64,000 nt of DNA from Mobula hypostoma (Eukaryota), in the NCBI RefSeq assembly GCF_963921235.1, contig NC_086097.1, positions 149,360,001-149,424,000 of the forward strand, given 5' to 3'. A program made the translations under genes and the position numbers. The notes under the pieces are model-generated. The model saw only the letters and a list, made by a program, of their open reading frames with translations. It was not told where the DNA came from and did not search any database. Positions within the stretch are counted from its first letter, which is position 1; every line of letters starts with the position of its first letter. This document shows, piece after piece, positions 757-61,372 of the stretch.

Positions 757-1654
757 CCAGACAGCATCCATAGGAAGAAGCACAGTCGACGTTTCAGGCT
801 GAGACCCTTTGTTAGGACTAACTGAAAGAAGAGATAGTAAGAGATTTGAAAGTGGGAGGGGGAGATCCGAAATGATAGGAGAAGACAGGAGAGGGAGGGA
901 TGGAGCTTAGAGCTGGAAAGTTGGTTGGCAAAAGGGATACAAAGCTGGAGAAGGGAGAGGATCATGGGACGGGAGGCCTAGGGAGAAAGAAAGGGGGAGG
1001 GGGGTGCCAGAGGAAGATGGAGAGCAGACAAGGAGTAATTGTAAACAACAGAAATTCTGCAGATGCTGGAAATTCAAGCAACACACATCAAAGTTGCTGG
1101 TAAATGCAGCAGGCCAGGCAGCAACTCTAGGAAGAGGTACAGTCGACGTTTCAGGCCGAGACCCTTCGTCAGGAGTAATTGTGAGAGGGACAGAGAGAAT
1201 AAAAGAAAAAAATAAAAATAAATAAATTAGGGATGGGGTAAGAATGGGAGGAGGGGCATTAAAGGAAGTTAGAGAAGTCAATGTTCATGCCATCAGGTTG
1301 GAAGCTACCCAGACAGAATATAAGGTGTTGTTCCTCCATTAAACCACACTCAGGTTGGAGGAACAACACCTTATATTCCGTCTGGATAGCATCCAACCTG
1401 ATGGCATGAACATTGACTTCTGTAGCTTCCTTTAATGCCCCACCTCCCATTCTTACCCCATCCCTTATTTATTTATTTATTTCCTTTTTTTTCCCTCTCT
1501 GTTCCTCTCACAATTACTCCTTGCCTGCTCTCCATCTTCTTCTGGCGCTCCACTCTCCCTTTCTTTCTCCTTAGGCCTCCCGTCCCATGATCCTCTCCCT
1601 TCTCCAGCCTTGTATCCCTTTTGCCAATCAACTTTACAGCTCTTAGCTCCATCC
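757..1654. mobile_element. Penelope-like (Neptune-type) composite: - strand copy, nested short insertion and inverted + strand arm
   Basis: GIY-YIG C-terminus (EEQHLIF.LGS.QPDGMNIDF) present on both strands. Arms 898-1338 and 1356-1654 are reverse complements. Insertion 1043-1170 is flanked by aggagtaattgt. Confidence 0.85.
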
Positions 1655-2566: not shown

Positions 2567-4699
2567 GTAAGTATGGATGGTTTGTTTGGATCTGTAGTGA
2601 TGATCGTGGCAGGAATCAACATAAAGAATAAATGTATAGATTTTTTTTCAAACAGTTTAGGGAAATGTTGCACCAGCTTCTCTTATGTTCATGTTATTGC
2701 TTGACCATTGCTTCCATTAAGAAGCATATACCCATGCAACATTGTCTGGTGCTGCAAAGTACTGAATCTGTCAATTTTCAAGGGTATATGAATACACAAG
2801 TAAATTTTAAAAAATACTATGGCAGATCCATTCACTCCCAAAGGAATTGTCATAGAACTTGACTCCAATATGTTCAGCTATACGTTTCCCGCAAAGAAAA
2901 AAAAATAATAGAAATGCTCAGAAGGTTAGTCAGAATCTGTGGGGGAGAGCAAGTTAACTGTAGAAGTTAAAGCCTTTTAACATAATTGGTAAAAGACAGC
3001 AGTAAAACAAGTTTTAAGATGCAGAAATAGAAACAAAAAGTGCTGAAGGAAGCAGGTTATGCGACATCTGTGGGAGAGAATTAGAGTTAACAGTCCAGGT
3101 TAATGAACCTTCATCACAATTGGAAGATGGAGAAAAGATACGTGTTTTAAATTGCAGAGAGAAAGAGATGGAGAGAATCAAGGGCTGTCTATGATAAAGT
3201 GCATACAGGTGCCGTGGCCAGGTGATCAAATTGCTGCTGGAACACACTGAGAGAGGAAGATGAATATCGGTGAATCATAGCTAATCTGTCTGGCGGAGTG
3301 TAAATAGAGGAATATGAATGAGGACTGTAGAGAGAATAAGAACAAATGCTGGAGCTATAAGATGCAGAACTCATCAGTTTTTGGGAATCTAAAGTAATAA
3401 AGAATGCTGAAAATATTCAGCATGTTAATTGTTCAGTGGTTTCACCCTCTGTCTCGATGTTCCAATCTCCCGTGATGCTTCAGTTGGCGACACTGACGAG
3501 GAATGGGGTCATCCATGAGGGCTACCGAAGGCGCATGTCTTCCAGGCCGCTCCTGGAGATCAAAAAATGGCTGGTCGGTAAGCTTGGGAGTGGGAGCTCA
3601 CCGTGAAGAACCACAGTTTGAATACAGCTGTAGATTATGGGCTCCGACAGGACCCCAACCACCTTGAAAAGGAAAGAAGAGACATTAATAAGAGGAATTT
3701 AAGCTGTTTCGTAGATGAGCTTGGAAGAAGTCGCTCTCTGGCGCCATCTTAGCTCCTTCTCCTAATGATATACATTGTATCTATGGAGAAAGTAAAACTG
3801 AATTAATGTATCATACTGGTCAATTATGACAGAGGAAACAAAAAACATGCTTCAATCTGCAGCCTGAATGTAACAGACACACTTACCCCTGACCTGGAGC
3901 AGAGGGCTGAGCATGCAGATTGTCTAAACCTAAAGACATCATATGAGTGAATGGTGAAAATGTACATTTGTGGTCACAGCTCTGTTGTACATTGAAAGTG
4001 AAAATATACTTCTGAGGTCACAGCTCTGCAATACATTGATCGTCTGCAACAGGAAGGGAAGCTATTGCTAAAACATTACTCCTGTAAAATTCGCAAGGCT
4101 CCGCAAACATTTTCAAATTTTCTCTGATATTGTGGTATTTAAAAACAATTGATGTGTAAATAATTTAAAATTTTGAATTATTTAAGGTAAAAAATAATTA
4201 CCTTATAATTTAAAACACAATTAAGAACATTAATGTAAGTAAAATAAAAAAGGAACTTATGTTTTCTAGTCTAAGCTAGATGACCAAAAATATTGAATCA
4301 GTGTTAGAATCAGAATCAAGTTTATTATCACAGGCATGTGTCGTGAAATTTGTTAACTTAGCAGCAGCAGTTCAATGCTTTACCATTTCTTTGCAAAATT
4401 TCCTTTCTTTATGAGAATTTGTAGCCGCGTTGAGAGAAATGTTTGCCATCCTCTATTTAATATCAGATCAATTGTCCAATAACAAAGGGTTATTGGTGGA
4501 AATTGAGACAGGTTGCTGTCATGGATCTTAATGTCATCAGAGTACATATGGAGTAGATGATGCACTTATTAGAGCATCAGATTAAGGAATGTTATAGATG
4601 TGGGTAAGCAGAGTAAAAATAATATATAAATCTATCTAGTTGTCTTGTGAGCAACAAGAAGACGATGGATGCTATGGTTTGCAATGCTCTCAATTGCTG

Positions 4700-5460
4700 G
4701 GATTGTCCATGATTTCTGGTCTATGGTATATTAATTGATAGCGATCAATCAGTATTACTAGACATCATCCTCATCATCAGCATTAACTTCCTCATCGTCA
4801 TTGTGATAGGGACTATGATTTATCATTGCTTCAGTAATTCCTACATTCTTAATCCCATACGGAAGCTCATTTAATTTGTTCCTGATTTGTGAGTGCAGAT
4901 AAAGAAGGCCTGATTCATCCCTCGAAATAGCACCAACTGTGCCCCATAATTGTATTCAACTGTTTCTTAACAGTATATTCTAAAACTAAAATAATGATTA
5001 TTTGAATGTGATCATTTTGCTATATGACTTTTGAATCAACGGATGTTCATTGTCTTTGACTTTCAGTTTTGCATATTCAAGGATATTGGTGATGTCTGCG
5101 AAGTGTGGTAAATTCTCAAAACTAAGGTGTTACATGCCTTCATTGAAGCATCTTGATACAGTGCTAAAAAGTGCAGGTAGAAAACTATTAATATGTTTGA
5201 TTCAGTTCAGGTCAAGTGGTTGCAAATTCCTAACCGTGGAGTGTTTAGTGGAGAAATACCTTATATATTGCTGCCTTACATTGTTGTCTTTTTTATCCTC
5301 AGCATCTTTTTTTTCAGTAAACGTAAAAGTATCCTGACTAAAAATAAGCTCCATTAGCTCCTTCTCTTTTAGTTTGTACGTTGTAGTGGGTCATATTAGC
5401 CATAACACTGTAGTGGATCTAACATGAGATTACTAATAGAGCAGACAGTTTAGCCAATGC
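4700..5460 (-). mobile_element. Decayed pogo/Tigger-like transposase remnant
   Basis: The - strand at 5208-5225 reads LQPLDL (pogo DDE motif) after a P.NT-like segment. An EKELME segment near 5350 resembles a CENP-B-type HTH. No long ORF. Confidence 0.4.
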
Positions 5461-6218
5461 TGAATCTTGTTCCTTATCACCAAAGTTTGCTCCAGTCATC
5501 TGCAGCTCCAGCCACTGCAAGCAATATTGTAGTTTCTTTAGAATTCAGTAAATGATAGTGCTTATTTATACTGAGGCAATGGAAAAAGAAATTGTTCAAC
5601 AATAGCAAGACAAGCTTTTCACTGTATCTTGGCTACATGTGATGATTATAAACCAAACCAATGCCATTCTATCACATGAAATGAGTTTATAGTGGATCAC
5701 TTTGCTCCACACCCAATTTTCTTTGCAATTATTAATTATAAGCTTATTTTACATCATCAACATTGAGCAGTTTCACCTCTTGTGTGTACTTAGGTTTCAG
5801 TTATGCCCTGCTGCACGTGATACTTTTACCTCCTCACTCTTTCTCTTCCCCCGTCACCACTCCCCTCCTACTACCACCCAACCTCATTGCCCAGAGAACC
5901 AATATATTTTCCGTTGTTATTAGGAAAAATAAATTGTTTTCTTGCTCCTATTCTAGTTTCCATTTGTTAATCTTCAAGGCTAAACTCCATCTGTGGATGA
6001 ATGGATCAGTGTCCCAGACTTGTAATGCTGATGTGAGAACAGTAGTACTTAAGTAAAAATTTCTTAATGACTTTTCCTATATTCCTAGGGAGGATGTGTG
6101 TGTCTTTGGCATAAGTAGAATTGTAAGTCATTATGTTCCACTTTAACATATGTTCAAATGGGTGACATTTTAATCTATTGCATTTAGCAGTAAAGAGACA
6201 TCACTTTGGATTTTACAG

Positions 6219-6458
6219 CTGTGCATTTTTCTAATCCCTTAGCACCACCATCCTATCTCCCTGCTTTGCAGCCAGAGAAGTCTGACGATAAGAGCCTCAA
6301 ATCTTCCGAAGTCTGCAAGAAAAAGCGATCATCTGCATCATTCGGTACAGACGAAGCAGACGCTCATCCTACGCTCTCTGTGAAGGAGAAGAACACAGAG
6401 ACCATGCCTGAGAAGATGGATCGGAGATGTGTTGACAGAGACAGAAATGCAGAAGTTG
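6219..6458 (+). CDS. PHF20L1: PHF20L1 internal coding exon (low-complexity linker)
   Basis: Acceptor ttttacag|CT and donor G|gtaaaa; 240 nt, open, phase 1-1 (VHFSNPLAPP...DRNAEV). An alternative in-frame acceptor at 6243 is possible. Confidence 0.7.
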
Positions 6459-6654
6459 GTAAAAACCATTTCTGTTATTCCATAAAAGCAGGAACAGACT
6501 TACAGTGATTAAACTTGCTTAAAATTGATAAATTTTCTCTTCTAATTCCAAATTAATTACTAACTAGAATTTTCACCATTCATCATAAACCTATACCTGG
6601 AAATTTCTTCTGGGTAACATTTACTCCTGGCACACAAAGTTGCCAACAATACGT

Positions 6655-6886
6655 TTATTTTTATTTAGATTTACAGCATAGGTAGCAGGCCCTTCTGGCC
6701 CAACAAGCCCACGTCACCTAATTACCCTACCAACCTATATGTTCTTGGGCCGTGGGAGGAAACTGGAGCACCCAAAGGAAACCCAAGCGGTCACGATGAG
6801 ACGTACGATCTCCTCACACATAGTGGCTGAATTGAACCCGGATTGCTGGCGCTGAAATAGCGTTGCACTAACCTCTACACCACCTT
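6655..6886 (-). mobile_element. V-SINE-like tRNA-derived SINE
   Basis: Reverse complement of the V-domain (gggaggaaactggagcaccc..ggaaaccc), a B-box-like attgaaccc and a LINE-like tail. Confidence 0.65.
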
Positions 6887-7944
6887 GTATTTATTTCTTG
6901 CTGCATTTATTTATTGTTTTTGAAGCACAAATAAGATGACTAAAATTGCTCCTGATCTGCAGTTCAAATTGCCTACAGTAGTGTAGGTGGAAAAGCAAAG
7001 AGATCCTAATCTTGCTGGTGTAAGTTCCCAGTACCACCGTTGTCTTGGTACCTACCGGTACGCACCATTGCGCTCAGGTGCTACAAGAAATTAAACAGAG
7101 TGATTAAGTTACTTGAGTATTCAGCAACATTGTGATTGGCCCACATTGTCTGACCAGGAATCTGATATGTTAAGCATCTGTGATGGAACAATGAGCAAGC
7201 ATCAGATTAAAAGACAGACCGATTTTGGAAATATTAACTCCCACTCAGTAAATTCATTATAAGAGATTGACTGAGCTGACATTAGTTGAGGGTGCTTGCA
7301 TGTTCAAAATATTAATTCTGAGATAGTTAATATTTTTATTTTCTGTTTTGCAGACAGGTGAAAAAGTGAATGAGCTTTTCTTTCATCTGTGGAGTACATG
7401 AAACATATACTTCCATACTTTAAGTTTAGAGATGCATTCAGAATTTTGGATCTTTAGGTTTAAGTCATTGTTTTTGTTTTAAGTTTGCTTACTTTAATTT
7501 TCTCCCTCATCTGCCAAAGTTTTATCCTAGGAGGGCAATGGCACTCTGGTAATTTACTTAAGTGGCCATTCATCTTGTGTGAGCTGTGGTAGTGAGTGCC
7601 GGCAGGCTTGGTGAATGTGATGCTGAGCAAGGGAGCTGAGGCCAATTCTGTCCTTTCCTTAAACGAACACAAGCATTTCTAGCAGACATGCTGGAGAGCA
7701 ATCATAGCTAAATTTCTTTAACATTTCTCCTCATTGTATGAGGGCTAATACAGTTCGATTGCTGCAGTAAACAGTAAATAATTAGGTGTTTGAGTAATAC
7801 TTAATGTCATTTTTCTTGCTCAGTGTTAGATGAGAAAGTGATGTTGCAATTTAATATTTTATAAGATTGTGGTAGACTAAGGGAATATTTCAGAATGCTA
7901 TAAAATGATTTTCATTCTAATAGTAACTTTTTGTAAATGTTTAA

Positions 7945-8470
7945 ATAGTTCAAAGTAAATTTCTTATCAACTCACATATATGCCTACATAAAAACCTGAG
8001 ATTTGTTTTCTTGTGGGCATACTTAATAAATCCAGGAACCATAATAGTATCAATGAAAGACTGCACCCAGCAGAGCAGACGATCAATCAGTGTGCAGAAG
8101 GCAACAAACTGCACAAATACAAAAGAGAATAAATAAATAAGCAATAAATCTCAACAACATGAGATGCAGAGTTCTTGAAAGTGAGTCCATATGTTGTGGG
8201 AACATTTCAGCGAGTGAAGTTATTCCCACTGGTTCAAGAGCCTGATGGTTGAGGGGTAGTAATTGTTCCTGAACCTGTTAGTGTGAGTCCTGAGGCTCCT
8301 GTCCCTTCTTCCTGATGGCAGCAGTGAGAAGAGAGCATGGCCTGGGTGGTGGGGATCCCTGATAATGGATGCTGCTTTCCTGTGACTGCGCTCTGTGCAG
8401 ATGTGTTCAATGGACAGGAAGACTTCACCCATGATGTCTGGGCATATCCACTACTTTTTGTAGGATTTTT
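7945..8470 (-). mobile_element. Rex/Babar-like LINE 3' fragment
   Basis: Encodes RKAASIIRDPHHPGHALFSLLPSGRR.RSLRT.TNRFRN. The same family occurs at 14230-14735 on the + strand. Confidence 0.7.
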
Positions 8471-8530
8471 GTAACTTTTTACTTTTTACTTCTTGTAACG
8501 TCTGAAGGAAGAATGTTAAACTTCCAACAG

Positions 8531-8581
8531 GAATAAAAACTGAAAAGAAGATGAAGAATGAAGAGAAGAGCTTATTGCCTG
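8531..8581 (+). CDS. PHF20L1: PHF20L1 51-nt coding exon (not in ORF track)
   Basis: Acceptor ccaacag|GA and donor G|gtaatg; phase 1-1. GIKTEKKMKNEEKSLLPG resembles human PHF20L1 GISKTEKKVKLEDKS as recalled. Confidence 0.85.
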
Positions 8582-10403
8582 GTAATGTTATATGCTAAAG
8601 TCTTTTCAAGACTGTATTGTCATCTATGTATTGTTTCTGTATGTGCTATCCAACAAGAGGTGAGACTTATAATGATTTATGAAGACCAGAAGCTTTATTC
8701 TTGGTTAATTCAATTTTCCAAAGAGGACTATGGAGCAGAGTCTTTTTTTGTGCTGGTTCTCTGGTTTAGTTTTTTTATTAAGCCATGCTTAATTTGCCTT
8801 GAAACTTTTACAAATTCGTACAAGATATAATCCTTGAAAACTGGGATAACATAAGAAAATAGCAGAAGTTTCAGATCAGATTCATCAAGAGCTGAGAAGA
8901 GGGAAAAACGGGTATTTCAATCTCCATAAAGTTTTGTCACCTGAGTTAGGTATGTGCCTAAAACAACAACGTTTCACAGGAACCTCCTGGATCTTACATT
9001 TTTGTTTCCAGTTGGGTACTCACAATCACCTGCCCCTTTTGCGTGCTTAATGTTAATTTGGCTTACTTTAACTCCTTATGAACCTAAAGGTCTGTGGAGA
9101 TTTTGGTGATGTTGGAAATATTTGCACACAAGTTCCATTTGCCTTATATGCACCTCCATGTTGTAGAAAGTTTCACTGAAGCGTATGAGAGGATGGGCCT
9201 TATACTCAACAAATCAAATGACCTCCACCTCCTGCCCCTGCTGCACCAGACTACCCTCCAATAATAAAGCTTCCTGGTAAGATGTTGGAAATTCCATAGC
9301 TCAAGAGCCAGCTCTTGATGTAAGTAGAAATGATGATGAAATAAACCAAAATGTAATAGGAATTATACTTGTATTCCTGTACATTACAGATAAATGTACA
9401 GGAACATAAACAGTGAAAAGATACCACTAACACTTTGTATCCAAAATCCTCCAAATTCACTGGAATAACAAGGAAACTAATTTTAGTACCCCTCTCAGGC
9501 CAACACCAATAGTTATACTCAGTCAGCTAAACAGGACAGGCTTCATCATTCCCAAGACCAGACTCCTGGAAAGGATGGTCTGTTCTAAGTTTTCCCATGG
9601 GAAGAGATTGCCGGGCAACAAAAGATTTAAGGATATGCTTGAGGAAATGTAATATCCCCACTGACTCCTAGGAATTTCTGCCCATGACTATTGGAAGTGA
9701 AAAATGAACTTTTAGATGGTCACTGAGAACCTCAAAGCTGTACATTGTGAGCACACAGGGGCCCTCTGTAAAGGAGAAAAGAATTTTACCATTTTACAAA
9801 CTATCCACCTGCCAACCCATTCATCCACCTGCTGTTTCATTGGTGAAAGAGTGTCCAATCCTATAATGATTCCAGCAATCATCTCAGAACACAGAGTGAA
9901 AGTGACTCCTCTTTGATTGAAAGGGGCTGCTTTAGAAAAAGAATCTTAAAGTTGAAATATAATTTACAGACCTTTCATTTCAGGCAAGCTTGTTGCATCC
10001 AATAATGAATCTAAGAGGAAAATGTCATCAAAATATCATAATTCAAAACATTCCCAATACAAAATGAGATTTTAAAAAAAGAAATTATGTTCAGACATTG
10101 ATCTGGGTCTTGAATTTTGCAAGCAGTTCAATTTTCTTCCTGACTGACCTTTACAAGTAACTATAATCACCTGTACGAGACTTTTCTACAATTTTGAAAG
10201 ACAAGTGGCCTTATGGAAGGGTTGCAAGCAGACAAAAACTACCTGTGAGTATTGTATGTAGAAATTTTGTGCTGTTTACTTTTCTCACGTGATGAGGTAA
10301 GTTAGGGAGAAAAGGAAGGGGGGATGTAGAACAGAATAATGCGTTGAATAATTGAATAATGCGTGAAAGCATAAAACAAAAATGTATTTTCATATTCCAA
10401 AAG

Positions 10404-14740: not shown

Positions 14741-16168
14741 TCGAAGTTGAGAGGGAAATAATTCGGGTGCAGATTCTGGACACACCAGAACTGCTAGAGA
14801 GGGCTATGATTTTAAAAATTTCTTCTATATCACGAAGTATGTCACAGCCAGTGAGAGTGTGTAAGAAAACCCTGAAACTGGCTTTTGAATGGCAATGTTC
14901 CAGAAACTACCAATGTGATGAATAATCTCATGTAATGTAATGGGCAGCCATTGTTCCCTCTGCGTCATTGCTTGTTTTATGTTCACTGAACAAGGAGGTC
15001 AGAGCCCACTTCAATGTGTCCCATAAACACTACACTTTTGAAGTGGTAACACTCCATTAAGTAGTTACTGAGGTGTCAACTTTGAGTATGTGCTTATGTT
15101 GTGGAGTGATCTCTTAGAGCAAAGGGTGCCTGGCTGGCCTTGAGAATTAAGAGACCCAGGAGAAAGGCACAGAACAAAGCCTGAACTGGTCACAGGAGTG
15201 ATGCAAATAATGACTAGTTGACAGAAGAGTTAACTATTTAAATGTTCAATGTTTATAAAAGGGTAAATATACAAAGATAAGGTATTGCTCAGTTTTACTG
15301 CATTAATTTCCTTTGATATGTTTGCGTATGATATGCGCTGCTAGCACTATGTTGGGAAATTCAATAATTAGTGCATTAAAGAGTTTGCAAGGCGGTATTA
15401 TCAGGTTGATTGTGGTGCGATGATGAGGGTTTTTTTCTGACAATGGGAACCTAAGGAGATTTGGCCTACACTCATTGGAGATCAGAGGGATGAAGGGGGT
15501 TCCTACTAAGAAAAACACGTCCAAAAGGCTGTTTCCTGTAATTGAAGGAACTGCTGCTTGGGTGCTAGACCCCAGGTAAATGGATTGACTGTTTGGGCCT
15601 GAGCGAGGGAGAAATTTCTTCATATACTGTATAAAGTATTGAAAACCTTTGGAAATCTCTACCTCCGTCATTGAGTATATTTTGCTTTTGAGTTTAGTAC
15701 ATTTATTGGATCAAAGAAGTCAGAGGCTATGAGAACAAGCAAGAAAGTGCATTGATTGCACTAAATAGTGAGGGATTACAAAGCCTGTGCTTGCTTCCAG
15801 TTCTTATATTCTGAGAATCCTAAAGCACAGAACAGTCTTTTCAGCTCCTCATGGCTCTTTATAAGATCTATCAAATTTGTTTCACTCCCCTGACCTTTGT
15901 CCATACCTGTGCATTTTTTTTAAACTTTTGCTCTGTATTTCCTTCTTTTGAGTATATGAAACAAACTTTCCAATTCCAGAGTAATGGGGAGAAAGAACAT
16001 TAGCAAAATCTTGCACCTTAAACACTATCTAGCACTGATTTATTGGAACAATAGCGTGTTTAGATCATTAAGACAATCATATGATATAATTTATTTTTCT
16101 TCTTTTATCCCCTTTTAATCATTGTTTCTGTTTCTTTTGATCACTTTGCTTCATCACTCTCACTGAAG

Positions 16169-16268
16169 TGTGAAGAGTGCCTTTGTTGGCAACATGGCAT
16201 CTGTATGGGGTTACTGGAAGACAACATTCCAGACCAATATTTTTGCTACATCTGTCGGGAACCTCCAG
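16169..16268 (+). CDS. PHF20L1: PHF20L1 PHD finger exon
   Basis: Acceptor ctgaag|TGT and donor G|gtaata; 100 nt. [33 protein letters not shown] completes the C4HC3 PHD finger. Confidence 0.97.
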
Positions 16269-16693
16269 GTAATATACTTGATATGGCCACCTTCTGATGC
16301 TATATTTAAGCTTTCAGTACAACTTAAATAACATAAGTGAAAACTTTAAAAAACTGCAGATGCTGGAACAGTGAAGTAAAACAGAAAATACCGGACACCC
16401 TCAACAGGTCAAACAATAAATGGTAAACACAATAGATAATGCAGATGCTGGAAATATTGAGAAACACACACAAGATGGTGGAGGAACTCAGTAAGCTAGG
16501 CAGCATCTATGGAGGTCAAACAGCATCCATGGAAGAGAAAACAGAATCAACGTTTCTCTTCATTTGGAATCTTCCCATAAATGTTACCAGACCTGATGAG
16601 TCTTTCCTGCATTTTCTGTTTTTATTTTAAACAAAATAACATGATTCTATCTTGTGATTACATTTGGTATGGAAATACATCGAGTTAACATTT

Positions 16694-17284
16694 AAGCAAC
16701 ACACATCAAAGTTTCTGGTGAACGCAGCAGGCCAGGCAGCATCTCTAGGAAGAGGCACAGTCGACGTTTCAGGCCGAGACCCTTCGTCAGGACTAACTGA
16801 AAGAAGAGCTAGTAAGAGATTTGAAAGTGGGAGAGGGAGGGGGAGATCCAAAATGATAAGAGAAGACAGGAGGGGGAGGAATGGAGCCAAGAGCTGGGCA
16901 GGTGATTGGCAAAAGGGATATGAGAGGATCATGGGACAGGAGGCCCAGGGAGAAAGAAAAGGGGGAGGGGGGAACCCAGAGGATGGGCAAGGGGTATAGT
17001 GAGAGGGACAGAGGGAGTAAAAGGAGAGAGAGAGAGAAAGAATTGTGTATATAAATAAATAACGGATGGGGTACGAGGGGAAGGTGGGGCATTAGTGGAA
17101 GTTTGAGAAGTCAATGTTCATGCCATCAGGTTGGAGGCTACCCAGATGGAATATAAGGTGTTGTTCCTCCAACCTGAGTGTGGCTTCATCTTTACAGTAG
17201 AGGAGGCCGTGGATAGACGTATCAGAATGGGAATGGGACGTGGAATTAAAATGTGTGGCTACTGGGAGATCCTGGTTTCTCCGG
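16694..17284 (-). mobile_element. Young Penelope-like (Neptune-type) 3' fragment
   Basis: QDLPVATHFNSTSHSHSD.SIHGLLYCKDEATLRLEEQHLIFHLGSLQPDGMN (GIY-YIG C-terminus). Closely similar to 33736-34461. Confidence 0.88.
16758..16795 (-). ncRNA. Minimal type I hammerhead ribozyme motif in Penelope tail
   Basis: The - strand reads UAGUC-CUGACGA-AGG(GUCUCGG)CCU-GAAA-C-GUC|GACUG: intact core, stem I AGUC/GACU, stem II and GUC cleavage triplet. Confidence 0.8.
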
Positions 17285-18663
17285 TTAATATTTAAAACCT
17301 GTTTGACCACTTTTTACCTCGGCAAATGACATATTAGATATTTCTGTGGAAATGTACTAAATTCATAAAAATAACTTGATTAGTTAAATTCAATGGGAGG
17401 AATGTTTTTTTTCTCTCAATGACTGAAAATCTATTGTAGATTATTTTAGTTATACTTGATATGATTCTGGAAGTCAAAATCCTTTGTGACTGAAATCAAA
17501 TGAAGCTCTGGTTTAAAAAAAAGTAATCAATACTATTTTCTTGACTGACAAAACTTTCACATGTTTCAATACTTTAAGCCTCTTTTTTGGACTCTACTTT
17601 CAGACGATTCTTTTTGACAAATGTGTTTTCAATGCAATATATCTTCTGAATTTGTTGTCAGGGTAAAGGTGTTCTTTGAATATGCTGATATGCTAACTTG
17701 CATTTATTCAAAGAGCAATAGGAATTTCCATTGAGAATCACAGATTTTTGCAGAATAAAAACACAACCTTTATTCAATTGTATCCTTGCTGACCATCCTA
17801 CCTGCATACACTATCCCATGTGCTTGCATTAATTTCATATCCCTCTATGCTCTTCTTTTTCAAATATCTGTCCAAATGCCTCAAATCTCTCCTGAACAGT
17901 CAAGCCCTCCAATTCAAAAAAACATTCTTGTCATTCTGCACCCTCACTAGCTGAATCACATTCTAACTGAACTGCACACAATGGTTGAAGGATGAACCTA
18001 CCCAATGGTTTGTGGAACTGTAACGCAGCATCCAAAGTCCTACACTTAATTCCTCGGCTTACATAACCTGCCATACACGTCCTTTACTTCCCTATCTGTG
18101 ATTGGTCCTGCTATATCTTTCAACAACCTTTTTATTGCCGTCAACTCCAACAAACTTTGTGTAAATTGCAAATGCACTAACTCATCCAAGTCATTTTTAT
18201 ATGTGTGCAAACAAACAAACATTGCATGCACCAAATATAACATACCAGATTGGAAGAGGTACATAGTTTCAGGGGAAATTGTCAGAGGATAGGGGGAGAT
18301 AAGAGAACCAGGGAGTGGCAGATGAAGCAGTTGGGCCAGGGAATTAGAAGTTGTCATCAAAATAGTGAAGAGCATGTATATCCTGGATGTCTGTGGGAAA
18401 GGACTAGATAAATTTTGCTATGGTAATTACCCATATAAGCTGATCTATACTGAATCAATATTGCTAATCACTCAATGATTATCACTTTGCTGGATGCAGA
18501 TTAGCCACTATGTTTCCTTCATTACACAACCGATTACATTCAAGAAGTACTTGAGTATAGCAACCAGCTATAACCAATAAACTACTTAATTTACAAATAG
18601 TTCATTGGAAGTAACGCATCTTATGGAATTAAGAACTGTGCTACATGATTTTGATTCCTATAG

Positions 18664-18859
18664 GTCAGAGATGGAGTGCCAAATATTGTTATGACAAAGA
18701 ATGGCTGAAAAATGGATATATGTATGGTCTGTCATTCTTGAAGGAGAATTATTCCCAGCAGAATGCTAAGAAAATAATATCAACGCACCAGCTCTTGGCT
18801 GATGTTTATAGTGTGACTGAAGTGCTCCATGGCCTTCAACTGAAGATTAATATTCTCCA
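18664..18859 (+). CDS. PHF20L1: PHF20L1 post-PHD conserved exon
   Basis: Acceptor cctatag|GT and donor CA|gtaagt; 196 nt. [18 protein letters not shown]...[22 protein letters not shown]; the RWSAK and ADVY residues are PHF20L1-type rather than PHF20-type. Confidence 0.97.
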
Positions 18860-19039
18860 GTAAGTATGTGTGACCGCGAGCAAAAGTTACACAGAACTCA
18901 AGTTATCTTAGTGTTAGTTTAAAGTAGTTTTCCTTTTAAAACTAGGTTATAGCTATAGTTTTATTAAATTTGGATGACTTCCAATTCAGTGCATTTCATT
19001 CTGTGCCCACAGAGTGTTCTCTACATTGGCAAAATACCA

Positions 19040-23408: not shown

Positions 23409-23643
23409 CAGTGGTCCCCAACCTCCAGGCTGCGGACCGATATCGGGCCGCGAAGCATGCAGGGGTGCAGTGGTAGCCGGGACACACCCAGCACATCTCT
23501 GATCTGGGCTGGCATTTACGTGCCGGGCGGCACCTAATTAATTAGCTTATTTATTTCGGCTTTTTTGTTAAAGATGTGCTGGGTGCGTCCCGGCTACCAC
23601 TGCACCCCTGCATGCTTCGCGGCCCGGAGGTTGAGGACCACTG
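23409..23643. mobile_element. hAT-type MITE (palindromic)
   Basis: TIRs cagtggtccccaacc / ggttgaggaccactg; perfect 8-bp TSD ttttagag (23401-23408 and 23644-23651); long internal inverted repeat. Confidence 0.92.
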
Positions 23644-25574: not shown

Positions 25575-28500
25575 TAGACCATATGACCATAGAACATTGG
25601 AGCAGAATTGGACAATTTAGTCCATTGAGTCTGCTCTGCCATTCCATTATGGCTGATTTATTGTCCGTCTCAACCGCATTCTCCTGCCTTGTCCCCATAA
25701 CCTTTGGTGCCCTGACTAATAAATCTATGATGATGAATTCCACAGATACACTGCCCGATGGCTAAAGAAATTCCTCCTTATATCTGTTCTAAATGATGTC
25801 TCTATTCTGACGCTATGCCCCCTAGTCCTAGGCTCCCCCATTACAGGAAACATCCTCTCCACATCCACTCTATCTAGGCCATTTAATATTCAGTTAGAAA
25901 TTCCCCCCTCATTCTAAGCTCCAACGAGTACAGATTAGAGCCAAGCATTAATGCTCTCATGCATTAACCCTTTTATTCCCGAAATCATTCTTGTGAACCT
26001 CCTCTGGACCCTCTCTAATGCGAGCGCATCTTTTCTTAGATAAGGGGTCCAAAACTGCTTTCAACGCTTCAAGCGCGGTCTGACCAATACTGTATACAAC
26101 CTCAGCATTACAACCTATTATATTCTAGTCCTCTCAAAGTGAATGCCAGTATTGCCTTTGCCTTCCAATTCAACCTGCAAGTTAACCTTTAGGGAGCACT
26201 GCACAAGGACTTCCAAGTCACTTTGCACCTCAGATTTTGAATTTTCTCCCCATCAGAAAATAGTCTAAGGCTTTATTCCTTTTACCAAGGTGTACAACCA
26301 TACACTTCCTAACTCTATATTCCATCTGCCATCTCTTTCTTCATTCTCCAAATCTGTCTAAGTACTTCTGCAAAATCCCTGCTTCCTCAACACCACCTGT
26401 CCCTCCATCTATCTTCATATAGTCTACAAACTTGGCCACAAAGCCATCAATTCCGCCATCCAATTCACTGACATGCAACCTGAAAAGAAGCGGTCAGAAT
26501 GCCACTAGTTAACAGCAGCCAACCAGAAAGGGCCCCCTTTATTTCCATTCTTTGCCTCCTGCCAATCAGCCAATCTTCTATCTATGCTAGTATCTTTCCT
26601 GTAATACTGTAATGCAAGTTCTTAACTTGTTCACCAGCCTCATGTTCCTTAAGGGGAAATCTTGACTGACGAATCTGTGGGAGTTATTTGAAGAGCTAAT
26701 AGGCAGGATAGCCAAAGGAGAGTCAGTGGATGGTGTTTACTTGAATTTTCAGATGGTCTTTGTTCCCCATTGCTACCTCTCAGGCATCATTTTCCAGTGG
26801 TCCGATATCCACTCTCATCTCTTTTACTTTTCATATATCTGAAAAAACCTTTGGTATCCCGAAAAAGGATCCAGTGCTTTCCTAACGTATATGACAAATA
26901 GACACTTCTTGGGCTACCAGCTGGATACAGGTATCAATTTTAACCAATGTTTCGATGACAAACTCTGCCATCTTCATCAGGGATGATGCCCAAGCACATC
27001 TAGTCTGGTGCTATACATATCCCTGTTGTTCGTCCCTCATGATAGTCCTCAATCAATTAATCAGGTTTCTGCTGTCCCACCTTGTTTACAATTGAATTCC
27101 AGTTCCTACTTTGAATGAGATCTTCATCTTTGTTAAAATTCTTTTCCTCTGGTTTTATGCCAGGTGGTCCCAAAAATCATTGGCACTCCATGATAGTTTT
27201 GTGCTGTTTAAGTCAATCCTCTTTTATACTATTGGCTAACTTACCTTCATATTTCATCTTTTATGGCTTTTTATAGTTGCCTTCTGTTGGATTTGAAAAA
27301 CTTCCATATCCTCTAACTTCTCACTAATGTTTCATTAATTATATGCCCTCTCTTTTGGTTTTTTGCTGTCTTTGACTTCCCTTGTCAACCATAGTTGCGC
27401 CATCCTCCCTGTAGAATACTGCTTCATCTTTGGGATCTATCTATCCTGCATCTGCCAAATTGTTCCCAGAAACTCCAGCCATTCGGCTGTCATCCCTGAT
27501 ATTGTTCCCTTCCAAGCAACTTTGGCCATCTCTTCTCTCATGCCTCCGTAATTTCCTTTACTCCACTGTAATTTATATCTAAATTTTATCTTCTCCCTCT
27601 CAAACTGCAGGGTGAATTCTATCATATTATGATCACTGCCTCCAAAGGGTTCTTTTACCTCGAGCTCCCTAATCAAATCTGGTTCATTACACAATGCCCA
27701 ATCCAGAATTGCCTTTCCCCTAGTGGGAACCATAAGCTGCTCTAAAAAGGCATCTCGCAGGCATTCTACAAATTCCCTCTCTTCACCACCAACCTGATTT
27801 TCCTAATCTACCTGCATATTGAAATCCTCCATGACTATCATAATATTGCCCTTTTTACAAAATTCAAAGTTCAAAGTACATTTATTATTGAAGTATGTAT
27901 ACCATATAGAACCTTAGATTTGTCTTTTTGTAGGCAACCACAAAACAAAGAAAGACAAAAGGACGCACTAAAAAAACACACACAACAACCTGAAAGTGAA
28001 TCCACAGCCACAGAGCCAGTCCAGCGCTGCAGCGGGTCCAGGAGCCACAGCCATGGCACCTTAAATACCTCGCATCTGAGTCTTTTTACCCTTGCAATTT
28101 CTTAATTCTATCCACAAGGACTCTACATCTTCCAATCCTATGTCACCTCCATCTAAGGAATTGATTACAATTTTTACAAACAGGGCACCCCACCCCTCTG
28201 CTTACCTGCCTGTCCTTGGATGTTAAGATCCCAACTATGATCTTCTTTCACTCATAACTCAGTGATGCCCACAACGTCATACCTGCCAATCTCTAACTGC
28301 GCTACAAGATCATCTATCTTATTCTGTATAGTGCATGTATTCAAATATAACACCTTGCATTGATCACCATTTTTGATTTTGCCCCATGTTGCACTTAACT
28401 CATCCCACTGACTGCAATTTTGCCCCATAGTCTATCCACACACTGCATTTACTTCAGATGGTTCCATTTATTATCAGAGAATGTATAGAGTATGCAATCT

Positions 28501-31730: not shown

Positions 31731-33735
31731 TTTGACTGTTGGAAACAAGCAACAATCTGTTTCAGCTGAACTAAGAAAATAAAAAAAAGTTGCAGATACA
31801 ATAAATCTGAAACAAAAAAAATATTGCAAACTCTCAGCAGGTCAGGTAGTTCATGTGAAAAGTGAAGCACAGTTAATGTTATGGGTTGAAGACTCCCTTG
31901 AACTTCACAGAAGCATATTGTACCGTAAGGATATTGTATACTGAGTGTACTGCACCAAACTGACAAAGTTTTCAAATTGCATCACCAAAATCCAATGTCC
32001 ATTGGGTTCAGAGATGACTGGAAACCTTATTTTCTGATTTACCTTCAGTCACCCAACAAGAATGTATGTCATTGTTCCTTCGTTATAGCAAGGATAAAAT
32101 CCAGAAGGCAAACCTTGCATCAGCCTTATTACAAGCACTGCAACAATTGCAAAGGTGCATGCAGAAAGTTTCAGAAACTAATGCTGCTGCCTCAGAGCCC
32201 CAGAGATGTAGGTCACATCCTGATTGTTCATTTCGCAGGTGCACTTTTCATATTATGGTGTGGATTTCTCCACAGGCGCCGTGGTTTCCATCCACATGCC
32301 AAAGATGTGCTAGGTGGTAGTTCACCTGGTTGCTGTGAATTTCCTCTGGTACAATGGTGGAAGGAGAATATTAGGTGGAGGCTGGTTGAAGTTGAATGGG
32401 ATGTGTGAGGGGAAGTGGAAGTAGCAGATTTGGGTGTTTGTTGACACAAATGAGGCCTGCTGAAGGACTCAGATCACCTTTCAAGATTGAAAATTAATAG
32501 CTAATAAATGCCCATCTGGAAGAATTATATTTTAAAAAAGATCGGGGAGCATTGACTTTAACATTCTAAGAGACTGCTCACAGATACTTCAAATGACAAA
32601 ATCAACTATGATTGAATAGTAGAGCAGACTCAATGGACCGAATGGCCTAATTCTGCTCCTATATCTTATGTCTTATGTTTGACCAGTAGGATGATATTGA
32701 TCAATGATAAGACTGGCAAGGGAACGACAGATGGAATTTAATTCTGACCGAAGTAGTGCAGTTTTGGAGGACTGGTAAGAAGCGACTACATTGAGGTACA
32801 GAGAGACTTACGTCTACAAGTTCAAGGATCCCTGTAGGTAGCAGCACAGCTAGATAAGGTGATGAAGAAGACCCATGGGATATTTGATATCATTAGCAAC
32901 AGTATGAAGTATAAATGCAAAGAGGTTAAACATTTGTTAGGCTACAGTCGGAGTACTTTGTAAGGTTATGATTAGCACAGCACAAAAGCATCCTATCTCG
33001 ATACATCACAGCTTGGTTAGGCAACTACCCTTCTCAAGACTGCAAGAAACTGGAGAAAGTTGTGAACACAACCCTGTCCATCAAGCAGTTCAGCTTCCCC
33101 TCCCTTGTCTCTGTCTACACCTCACACTGTCTTGGGGAAGCAGCTCGGGAAATCAAGGAACCTTTCCAACCAGTCATTCTGTTTTCTTTCATCAGGCAGA
33201 AAACACAAAAGCTTAGAACATATCAACAGACCTAAGAACACCTTCTCTGCTGCTGTTGTCAGAATCTTGAAAGAATCTTTCATACGTTAAAAGCTGAACT
33301 CTTGAACTCTCCCAATTTACCTCATCATGATCCTGCTCTATGCTTGTCTGCTTGCACTGCACTTTCTCTGTAAATGGAGCATAGTACTGTATTCTGTGTT
33401 CTGTTTTCACTACTTCACTGTAATTATGTATGGCACGATCTGTCTGGATGGCTTGCACTACACACTATATCTTTTTTACATGTGACAATAATTAATTAAT
33501 AAACCACTACTTAGGAAAGATGTGATTGTCCAGGGGGTTTTCACTGGGATGTTGCTAAGCATGGGGCATGCCACTTATGGAAGAGACTGTATGAGCTGGG
33601 CTTGTTTTCTTTGGAGCTGAGAAGCTGAAAGGGGAACCTGATAAAGGTATTCAAAATTATGAAGGGCATAGATAAAATAGATGGTAGAAATTTTCCCCTG
33701 TAGGGCTGCTATCTAAAACTAGACAAGATAGGATT

Positions 33736-34461
33736 AAGCAACACACATCAAAGTTGCTGGTGAACGCAGCAGGCCAGGCAGCATCTCTAGGAAGAGGTAC
33801 AGTCGACGTTTCAGGCCGAGACCCTTCGTCAGGACTAACTGAAGGAAGAGTTAGTAAGAGATTTGAAAGTTGGAGGGGGAGATCCAAAATGATAGGAGAA
33901 GACAGGAGGGGGAGGGATGGAGCCAAGAGCTGGACAGGTGATAGGCAAAAGGGATACGAGAGGATCGTGGGACAGGAGGTCCTGGAAGAAAGACAAGGGA
34001 GGGGGGGGGAACCCAGAGGATGGGCAAGGGGTATATTCAGAGGAACAGAGGGAGAAAAAGGAGAGTGAGAGAAAGAATGTGTGTATAAAAATAAATAACA
34101 GATGGGGTACGAGGGGGAGGTGGGGCATTAGCGGAAGTTAGAGAAGTCAATGTTCATGCCATCAGGTTGGAGGCTACCCAGACGGAATATAAGGTGGTGT
34201 TCCTCCAACCTGAGTGTGGCTTCATCTTTACAGTAGAGGAGGCCATGGATAGACATGTCAGAATGGGAATGGGATGTGGAATTAAAATGTGTGGCCACTG
34301 GGAGATCCTGCTTTCTCTGGCGGACAGAGCGTAGATGTTCAGCAAAGCGGTCTCCCAGTCTGCGTCGGGTCTCGGCAATATATAAAAGGCCACATCGGGA
34401 GCACCGGACGCAGTATATCACCCCAGCCGACTCACAGGTGAAGTGTCGCCTCACCTGGAAG
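33736..34461 (-). mobile_element. Young Penelope-like (Neptune-type) 3' fragment inserted in a CR1 remnant
   Basis: Open GIY-YIG domain FTCESAGVIYCVRCSRCGLLYIAETRRRLGDRFAEH...LGSLQPDGMN. CR1 sequence resumes on both sides (about 32690-33735 and 34462-34660). Confidence 0.92.
33800..33837 (-). ncRNA. Minimal type I hammerhead ribozyme motif in Penelope tail
   Basis: Identical 38-nt motif to 16758-16795. Confidence 0.8.
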
Positions 34462-35032
34462 GGGAAGAGGTTTAAAGAGGATCTGATGATTTTTTTTGTT
34501 GCAATCCGGACTTCAATGGCATTTAAGAAGTACATAGATGAGCACTTGAATCACCAAGGCATAGAAGGATATAAACTAAATGCAGGTAAACTAAAGACCG
34601 TAAGACAGTTAAGTAAAAATAGTTACTTAATGGCCACCATAGACATGTGGACTCTAAAGCTTTATGACAATCTATGGAGGTTTTGCTCATTAATCTTAAA
34701 TTTTGCTCCTTGTGATCACTTTCTAAAATCTTAAAGTCTGTTCTTATTTGTTATTTGCTTCTACATTGGCCACTATTCTAGAACCTTGCTTTTATTTACC
34801 AAATGTTGACACCTGCATAGCAATAATAAACACAAGAGATTCTGCAGATATCGGCAATCCAAAGTAATTTACACAAAATGTCTGATAAGGAGTCTTGGCC
34901 TCAAACATGACAGCTTATTCCACTCCAGTGTTCTGTGTGTGTTAACTTGAAAAGCAATGTGGCATTGACTCTGAACAGTAGCAATCTATTACGATCTCTT
35001 CCCCTTCTCCCTCCATCCAACATATAACCACT

Positions 35033-61169: not shown

Positions 61170-61372
61170 ACAACAGACCAAAAATGCTGGATTCTGGAGG
61201 AACTCAGTAGGTCAGGCCGCATCTGTGGAAGGAAGTGGACAGTTGATGATTCAGGTTGGGACTCCTTCAACAAATCTCGGGCGTCAACAATCCTAATGAA
61301 GGGTCTCAGCCTGAGATGTCGACTGTTTGCCAACCTCTATAGATGCTGCCTGATCCGCTGAGTTTCCAGAGC
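61170..61372. repeat. Inverted pair of Penelope hammerhead/tail segments
   Basis: A - strand tail (61170-61270) abuts a + strand copy (tcctaatgaagggtctcagcctgagatgtcgactg...gatgctgcctgatccgctgagtttcca). Confidence 0.7.

What the first reader, a model, noticed from the sequence alone, without database searches (positions are those of the whole stretch)
16758..16795. Loop-less minimal hammerhead ribozyme in a young Penelope family (identical copy at 33800-33837)
Seen: the - strand reads UAGUC CUGACGA AGG-GUCUCGG-CCU GAAA C GUC|GACUG. This gives stem I (AGUC/GACU plus a U.G pair), the intact CUGAnGA and GAAA boxes, a short stem II and a GUC triplet. Stem III has no loop (GAAAC runs straight into GUC) but contains the palindrome ACGU. 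The 38-mer is identical in two copies 17 kb apart, while the flanking element sequence differs at many sites. Established: Penelope-like elements carry minimal type I hammerheads that are thought to cleave as dimers. Inference: this motif can fold only as an intermolecular or tandem dimer through ACGU, and it processes the RNA of a recently active chondrichthyan Neptune-type family.
Basis: partly seen in the sequence, partly recalled or inferred. Interest (0 to 1): 0.78.

Follow-up and report, generated by a model that had tools for sequence, protein, structure and literature searches.

The report
Ray Penelope transposon's standard minimal hammerhead
This is a real but ordinary copy of the tiny predicted self-cutting RNA motif already known from Penelope-like jumping genes, present in about 30,000 identical copies in this ray genome, and the new copies almost never begin at its predicted cut site, so it likely does not make the ends of the RNA that gets copied.

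Summary
The 38-mer is real and identical at 16758-16795 and 33800-33837. That identity is unremarkable: 29,805 exact copies exist genome-wide, and 19% of random copy pairs match. It is the loop-less minimal hammerhead that Cervera and de la Peña defined in Penelope-like elements (PMC4209133). It sits in the terminal repeat of a young Neptune-type element whose intact units have a 1,043-residue frame. Both window copies are 5'-truncated; one lies antisense in a PHF20L1 intron.

Corrections: stem II is better read as a bulged A plus GGGU/GCCU, with a likely derived G10.1·U11.1 wobble (29,805 U vs 4,395 C exact copies). The monomer is predicted to fold into an inactive rod. Against 'processes the RNA': 100 of 113 sampled copies run across the cut site, 1 begins there, and 31 of 95 begin at the motif's 5' edge. 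Best reading: a weak dimer- or protein-gated ribozyme whose cut is not used to make template ends. Cutting followed by circularisation remains open. Cleavage was not tested. The scan had already noted this family and the 5'-edge pile-up in this and other genomes.

The parts
16758..16795 (-). Minimal type I hammerhead motif, copy 1. Stem I arms 16795-16791 and 16762-16758; core CUGACGA 16790-16784; bulged A 16783; stem II 16782-16771 (G10.1 at 16782, U11.1 at 16771); GAAA 16770-16767; ACGU palindrome 16767-16764; predicted cut between 16763 and 16762
16692..17284 (-). 5'-truncated Neptune-type PLE copy 1 (end of endonuclease ORF, 3' UTR, hammerhead, short 3' end); antisense in the PHF20L1 intron between exons 16163-16270 and 18636-18860
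33800..33837 (-). Minimal hammerhead motif, copy 2, identical to copy 1; predicted cut between 33805 and 33804
33734..34463 (-). 5'-truncated PLE copy 2, about 3.9 kb past the last PHF20L1 coding exon (ends 29888)
34128..34460 (-). C-terminal GIY-YIG endonuclease fragment of the PLE ORF (weak Pfam PF01541 match, E 0.018; 96-98% identical to the best 150 genomic matches)
1042..1177 (-). About 135-nt stub of the same family starting at the hammerhead's 5' edge, inserted into an older copy with a 12-nt duplication (1031 and 1171); core intact, stem I broken
757..1654 (.). Older head-to-head (fold-back) copy of the same family; its hammerhead at 783-820 (-) has a broken core

Best explanation
The motif is the standard loop-less minimal hammerhead in the terminal repeat of a young, very abundant Neptune-type Penelope-like retrotransposon; the two window copies are truncated passengers, and in the parent element it is likely a weak ribozyme that would cut only as a pair or with help from the element's protein, and whose cut likely does not make the ends of the RNA that is copied into the genome. 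Shown: sequence, position about 300 nt after the ORF stop and about 165 nt before the likely start codon of the next unit, family, copy number, and where copies begin and end. Predicted: one copy alone folds into an inactive rod in which GACG of the core pairs with CGUC of the cut-site strand. Activity needs two motifs to exchange both stem I strands and the ACGU palindrome (3.5 kb apart in tandem units, or in trans), or a chaperone. Inferred: reverse transcription starts about 70 or about 100 nt downstream of the cut site and reads through an intact GUC-GAC junction. About a quarter to a third of copies stop at the motif's 5' edge, probably at an RNA 5' end there.
For: It matches the published min-HHR point by point: no loop 3, an extra nucleotide between 9 and 10.1, palindromic 15.2-16.2, U-rich 5' flank (PMC4209133 text and supplement Fig. 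S3). Eight loci show hammerhead-ORF-hammerhead with a 3,513-3,517 nt period and a 1,043-aa frame bearing RT motifs, a CX4CxxC linker and GIY-YIG. In the monomer ensemble the core-trapping pairs have probability 0.98-0.99. The modelled active dimer is -11.5 kcal/mol against -22.0 for two monomers and -30.3 for the inactive duplex (nearest-neighbour terms only). Of 113 copies picked by a downstream anchor, 111 end at +85..+104 (57) or at +119 or beyond (54), where core C3 = +1 and the cut follows +28. 100 of 113 extend across the cut site, 1 begins at +28..+30, and 31 of 95 begin at -13..+8 (0.0155 per nt against 0.0009-0.004 elsewhere). Of 50 copies holding the ORF leader, 0 of 37 begin at +27..+36 and 8 of 35 at -13..+8. 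In the anole Poseidon element the hammerhead cut only with protein, core mutants did not affect insertion in vitro, and no RNA-seq ends mapped to the cut site (PMC11167929). The core is kept in the majority sequence of four older families with different 3' UTRs.
Against: No cleavage or RNA-end data exist for this family; every activity statement is by analogy. Copy ends cannot separate 'rarely cut' from 'cut and re-ligated into a circle'. 27 of 35 leader-bearing copies pass the motif's 5' edge into the preceding unit, which needs tandem read-through transcripts, circles or template jumps. The -13..+8 bin was chosen after seeing the data and after reading earlier scan notes, and 100 of the 113 copies come from the first 3.5 Mb of one contig. 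Excess conservation within the young family is not significant (1 of 38 shared-variant sites in the motif against 28 of 318 in the UTR, p = 0.34), and the segment +42..+61 is as conserved across old families as the core. In longer contexts (-13..+131, -5..+200) the predicted fold changes and neither rod nor hammerhead stems dominate.
Confidence: 0.55

Rival explanations
1. Cut and close: tandem hammerheads cut a multimeric transcript into unit-length RNA that is re-ligated into a circle; reverse transcription round the circle gives more-than-unit copies (the model proposed in PMC4209133).
For: Ligation restores the junction, so no copy need begin at +29. The nine loci examined with a full-length frame and a 5' hammerhead (10 starts) begin at -34 to -1939, inside a partial upstream unit; 27 of 35 leader-bearing copies pass the 5' edge. 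Short tandem units holding the leader exist (310-nt period on contig C2).
Against: It does not explain the pile-up of copy starts at -13..+8 (31 of 95), since a circle has no end there. Tandem read-through transcripts or template jumps explain partial tandems equally well. In vitro insertion by the anole element did not need cleavage.
Confidence: 0.2
2. The motif no longer cuts in this family and is kept as part of a 135-nt terminal module (promoter start region, protein-binding or RT-start structure).
For: The youngest subfamilies carry U11.1, which weakens stem II by about 2.6 kcal/mol in context (-2.5 against -5.1), yet they outnumber C11.1 about 7 to 1 in exact 38-mers. Downstream sequence is as conserved as the core. 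PMC8557442 notes that Naiad elements thrive without canonical hammerheads and that the motif may simply parasitise PLEs.
Against: All core positions and a GUC/GUY triplet persist across families, with stem changes that keep pairing: first stem I pair C-G to U-A (47 CG, 30 CA, 7 TG, 18 TA among 119 old copies, p = 0.005, confounded by CpG decay and kinship), and an old family with AGGUC/GACCU-type stem II (18 of 19 A10.1 hits have U11.1, of 44 hits). G10.1·U11.1 also occurs in published cichlid, Xenopus and coelacanth min-HHRs.
Confidence: 0.15
3. One reading: RNA-only dimers cut the transcript, and the linear cut product is the template for new copies.
For: Published min-HHR dimers and trimers show low cleavage while monomers show none (PMC4209133); a later paper's title states that such variants cleave as dimers (seen only in a reference list).
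Against: A linear product starting at +29 should give many copies starting there; 1 of 113 and 0 of 37 do. A cut in the 3' repeat would remove the +97/+130 ends that nearly all copies carry.
Confidence: 0.1

Closest known systems
Minimal hammerheads (min-HHR) in pLTRs of metazoan Penelope-like elements (Cervera and de la Peña 2014, PMC4209133; Xena, Poseidon and Neptune elements of fish)
   Same: Type I core, no helix III loop, palindromic 15.2-16.2 (C-G), extra A between 9 and 10.1, 5-bp helix I, U-rich 5' flank, location in the terminal repeat, mostly solitary genomic copies.
   Different: Shorter helix II (4 bp plus tetraloop); G10.1·U11.1 instead of the usual G-C (precedented in that paper's Fig. 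S3); about 30,000 identical copies against 97 identical in D. virilis and 4,000-9,000 varied motifs in coelacanth and Xenopus; no shark or ray row in the part of the alignment read.
PAc (Poseidon) hammerhead of Anolis carolinensis (Frangieh et al. 2024, PMC11167929)
   Same: Hammerhead at the pLTR-ORF junction; two copy ends 30-40 nt apart (the 'tail') downstream of the cut site; uncut RNA as the apparent template.
   Different: Different clade; in PAc the ORF starts inside the ribozyme, here the likely start codon lies about 165 nt after core C3; protein-assisted cleavage shown there, untested here.
Neptune clade of EN+ Penelope-like elements (Craig et al. 2021, PMC8557442)
   Same: RT plus C-terminal GIY-YIG, CX2-5CxxC linker, heavy 5' truncation, partial tandems, inverted 5' copies, tail on one end only (15 of 15 inverted pairs).
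   Different: No tree against named Neptune and Nematis references was built, so Nematis is not formally excluded.
Non-LTR retrozymes of animals (bioRxiv 10.64898/2026.07.22.740005)
   Same: PLE-derived type I hammerheads, reported also in one chondrichthyan genome.
   Different: The window copies are dispersed truncated ends of an autonomous element, not tandem non-coding arrays.

Membership tests
PLE minimal hammerhead (min-HHR) | CUGAnGA and GAAA core with NUH triplet | tested here: met
   core intact in 67 of 77 spanning young copies
PLE minimal hammerhead (min-HHR) | No helix III loop; palindromic 15.2-16.2 | tested here: met
   GAAAC-GUC with ACGU; definition
PLE minimal hammerhead (min-HHR) | Extra nucleotide between 9 and 10.1 | tested here: met
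   bulged-A register 0.96 against 0.02 in the 38-mer ensemble; the only register open to C11.1 copies and to the AGGUC/GACCU family. Isolated energies nearly tie (-2.5 against -2.2)
PLE minimal hammerhead (min-HHR) | G10.1-C11.1 pair (highly conserved, not invariant) | tested here: inconclusive
   G·U wobble in these copies; G-C in 4,395 exact copies and in older families; G·U rows exist in the published alignment
PLE minimal hammerhead (min-HHR) | Located in both terminal repeats of a PLE | tested here: met
   L086-L093, period 3,513-3,517 nt
PLE minimal hammerhead (min-HHR) | Covariation in stems across families | tested here: inconclusive
   stem I first pair p = 0.005 but confounded; 10.1/11.1 not significant in 119 old copies (p = 0.56); supportive old family
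PLE minimal hammerhead (min-HHR) | Self-cleavage as dimer or with protein | not testable with these tools
   needs bench assay
EN+ Penelope-like element | Single ORF with RT and C-terminal GIY-YIG | tested here: met
   Pfam RVT_1 E 4e-5 to 6e-5 and GIY-YIG E 6e-4 to 8e-3, both under the curated cut-offs; DKG, DVQSLY and RYIDD motifs
Neptune clade | CX2-5CxxC linker between RT and EN (shared with Nematis, absent in Penelope/Poseidon) | tested here: met
   CKRNKCYTC at residue 883; criterion
Neptune clade | Phylogenetic placement with named Neptune RTs | not tested
   homolog search returned no clade-named references; only Neptune and Poseidon were reported in vertebrates
Rfam hammerhead families | Match to a curated covariance model | tested here: not met
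   no hammerhead family at E up to 5 in the window or E up to 10 in 16700-16850; expected if the models need a helix III (inference)

The most novel reading that the evidence does not exclude
This family is a natural, 100,000-copy record showing that the Penelope hammerhead is not an end-maker: reverse transcription starts downstream of it and reads through it, and the element's RNA begins at the foot of stem I, so a cut would clip off a roughly 35-nt capped leader and act as a protein-triggered switch (negative feedback, or a step to circles). A stem II-weakening G·U change then swept through the most successful recent subfamilies because less cutting means more copies.
Probability: 0.2. Interest if true: 0.6.

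Novelty: new member of a known kind. Interest (0 to 1): 0.2.

Why it matters
As a motif it adds only a ray example to a class described in 2014. Its use is as a test system. The role of hammerheads in Penelope-like elements is still unclear (PMC8557442). This family offers intact 3.5-kb units, at least 85,000 copies whose ends record the RNA template, and two natural alleles (C11.1 and U11.1) of different age. Together these make 'does cleavage matter for transposition' directly testable.

Tried and rejected
Rfam scans found no hammerhead family.

Two-copy identity as a sign of selection was rejected. Excess conservation within the young family was not significant (p = 0.34); private substitutions in the motif (24 of 2,605 non-CpG calls) are like those in the flanks (1.1-1.7%), as expected for neutral decay.

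A tight pattern for old families with a GGTC-nnn-GACC stem II and intact CpG gave 0 matches; a looser one gave 44. 10.1/11.1 covariation was not significant in the 119-row alignment. A formal pair count on motif-selected copies (list) was not run because it would be circular.

A spliced-exon explanation for the 5'-edge pile-up found no shared upstream sequence on inspection of the junctions printed. No target-site duplication of 7 nt or more was found for the two window copies.

Expression: no RNA holder listed. Contigs of four runs show both alleles at 11.1 but cannot show RNA ends, strand or level.

Lünse et al. (PMC5785218) is not held, so its variant list could not be compared; it may already include shark or ray motifs. 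Supplementary file 1 of PMC4209133 could not be searched. The search 'Penelope-like + hammerhead + shark' returned 1 paper, a general review that was not opened. Two further papers gave no measured effect of G10.1·U11.1. The first script timed out.

Full report
Observation. The minus strand at 16758-16795 and 33800-33837 is the same 38-mer, 17,042 nt apart, inside a 45-nt exact run. Two more copies lie at 1140-1177 (1 mismatch) and 783-820 (3 mismatches). A min-HHR descriptor found 23 hits in 864 kb (the window plus four 200-kb blocks chosen without regard to the motif) and 0 in reversed sequence. Positions below count core C3 as +1; the predicted cut follows +28.

The identity of the two copies means little. 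The genome holds 29,805 exact copies and 84,799 exact matches to a 27-nt downstream anchor. The two window copies are 94.0% identical (550 of 585), so a 38-nt match has probability 0.096. Among 83 spanning copies, 19% of random pairs match over the 38-mer, and flanking control 38-mers give 6-26%.

The element. Upstream of copy 2 is the C-terminal end of a GIY-YIG ORF. Walking 5' in the genome gave 8 of 150 listed matches with a 1,043-residue open frame. All 8 show hammerhead-ORF-hammerhead with a 3,513-3,517 nt period. The protein has RT and GIY-YIG domains (weak Pfam scores) and the linker CKRNKCYTC. That linker marks Neptune and Nematis and is absent from Penelope/Poseidon (PMC8557442, passages). 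The nearest named proteins are from Chiloscyllium, 67-71% identical. The host gene is PHF20L1 on the plus strand, 97-99% identical to Mobula proteins over one exon. Copy 1 lies antisense in an intron; copy 2 lies about 3.9 kb past the last coding exon, on the same minus strand. Host transcription would not make the ribozyme strand. In the 864-kb sample, none of 9 intact motifs had a same-strand intact neighbour closer than 17 kb.

What is known. Cervera and de la Peña (PMC4209133; parts 1-2 of 4 of the text, and part 2 of 3 of supplementary file 2) defined the min-HHR as having no helix III loop. They listed an extra nucleotide between 9 and 10.1, a conserved G10.1-C11.1 pair and palindromic 15.2-16.2, and found it in fish Neptune elements. 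Their monomer did not cut; dimers and trimers cut weakly. Frangieh et al. (PMC11167929; parts 1-2 of 4) found that the anole Poseidon hammerhead cuts only with the element's protein, that core mutants still insert in vitro, that reverse transcription starts at two internal sites that define the 'tail', and that no RNA-seq ends map to the cut. A review (PMC6765202, passages) restates the dimer model. Lünse et al. was seen only as a title in that review's reference list. A 2026 preprint (part 1 of 5 and passages) reports PLE-derived retrozymes in one chondrichthyan. The 'loop-less' feature is therefore the published definition, not a new variant.

Stem II. The alternative, a bulged A followed by GGGU/GCCU and a CUCG loop, has probability 0.96 against 0.02 in the 38-mer ensemble, though the isolated energies nearly tie. 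Comparison favours the bulge. Against this, 10.1/11.1 covariation was not significant in 119 old copies (p = 0.56). The first stem I pair did covary (p = 0.005), but CpG decay and kinship confound it.

U11.1 looks derived. The 66 U copies diverge 1.6% from the family majority and the 16 C copies 4.3% (p = 4e-7; rarer subfamily sites may inflate the C figure). All 28 informative leader-bearing copies of 50 carry U (the pattern came from a U copy). The change costs about 2.6 kcal/mol. G·U at this pair also appears in published cichlid, Xenopus and coelacanth rows, so it is a nuance and not a new class.

Folding. One copy is predicted to form a rod (-11.0 kcal/mol; z -1.24 against shuffles) in which core GACG pairs with CGUC at the cut site (0.98-0.99). 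An active pair must exchange both stem I strands as well as the 4-nt palindrome. It scores -11.5 against -22.0 for two rods and -30.3 for the inactive duplex. These figures omit tertiary contacts and change with longer context, but they fit weak or chaperone-dependent activity.

Copy ends. I took the first 100 exact anchor matches on contig C1 plus 13 from the window and blocks. The 3' ends fall in two groups, 57 at +85..+104 and 54 at +119 or beyond, with 2 between. All 15 head-to-head pairs have one long and one short end, the known one-sided tail. For 5' ends, 100 of 113 cross the cut site, 1 begins at +28..+30, and 31 of 95 begin at -13..+8, four to seventeen times the rate per nucleotide elsewhere. 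In a second sample of 50 of the 570 copies that hold the ORF leader, 0 of 37 begin at +27..+36, 8 of 35 begin at -13..+8, and 27 pass into the preceding unit. A linear cut product is therefore not the usual template. Rare cutting and cut-then-circularise both remain. The pile-up at the motif's 5' edge is best read as an RNA 5' end; the conserved YCAGTYC there resembles an initiator element (consensus recalled, not tested). Earlier scan notes pointed me to this test and offered that reading; my counts agree with them, but the notes are not independent evidence.

Verdict. Observation confirmed; interpretation partly supported; new member of a known kind; interest 0.2. The scan has reported this family many times (46 notes in at least 19 genomes matched all my search words). 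The residual value is as a test bed for what Penelope hammerheads do.

Noticed in passing
window 26941-26990 (-): A second, unrelated min-HHR-like motif with a long stem II (GAUGGCAG...UGUCAUC type), bulged A and G10.1-C11.1; the palindrome and triplet look decayed. Probably another PLE family.
   Followed up: no
window 1031-1182: A 135-nt stub beginning at the hammerhead's 5' edge is inserted into an older copy of the same family with a 12-nt duplication, giving two same-strand motifs 357 nt apart; one has a broken stem I, the other a broken core.
   Followed up: partly
window 61225-61364: Old head-to-head fold-back of two decayed hammerhead-bearing ends.
   Followed up: no
old copies (rows such as B3 73947, B3 65427, L216 778, L231 2493, B2 126774): Several old copies share CUGCCGA or CUGCUGA in place of CUGAnGA (A6 to C), suggesting a past subfamily that spread with a changed catalytic core.
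   Followed up: no
window 16791-16801 (-) and older families: The 5' arm of stem I follows a pyrimidine tract and reads YCAGTYC or TTAGTCC in all families; it resembles both an initiator element and a splice acceptor (both consensus sequences recalled).
   Followed up: partly
G000:C2:157816708-157817360; L280, L290, L291: Short internally deleted units holding the hammerhead and ORF leader, some in tandem (310-nt period), retrozyme-like.
   Followed up: no
window 2260-29888 (+): PHF20L1 coding exons; 2819-2890 is a decayed partial duplicate of the exon at 2260-2565.
   Followed up: partly
window 23444-23626: Inverted repeat with 55-nt arms, 98% complementary, 73 nt apart; looks like a small DNA-transposon remnant.
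   Followed up: no
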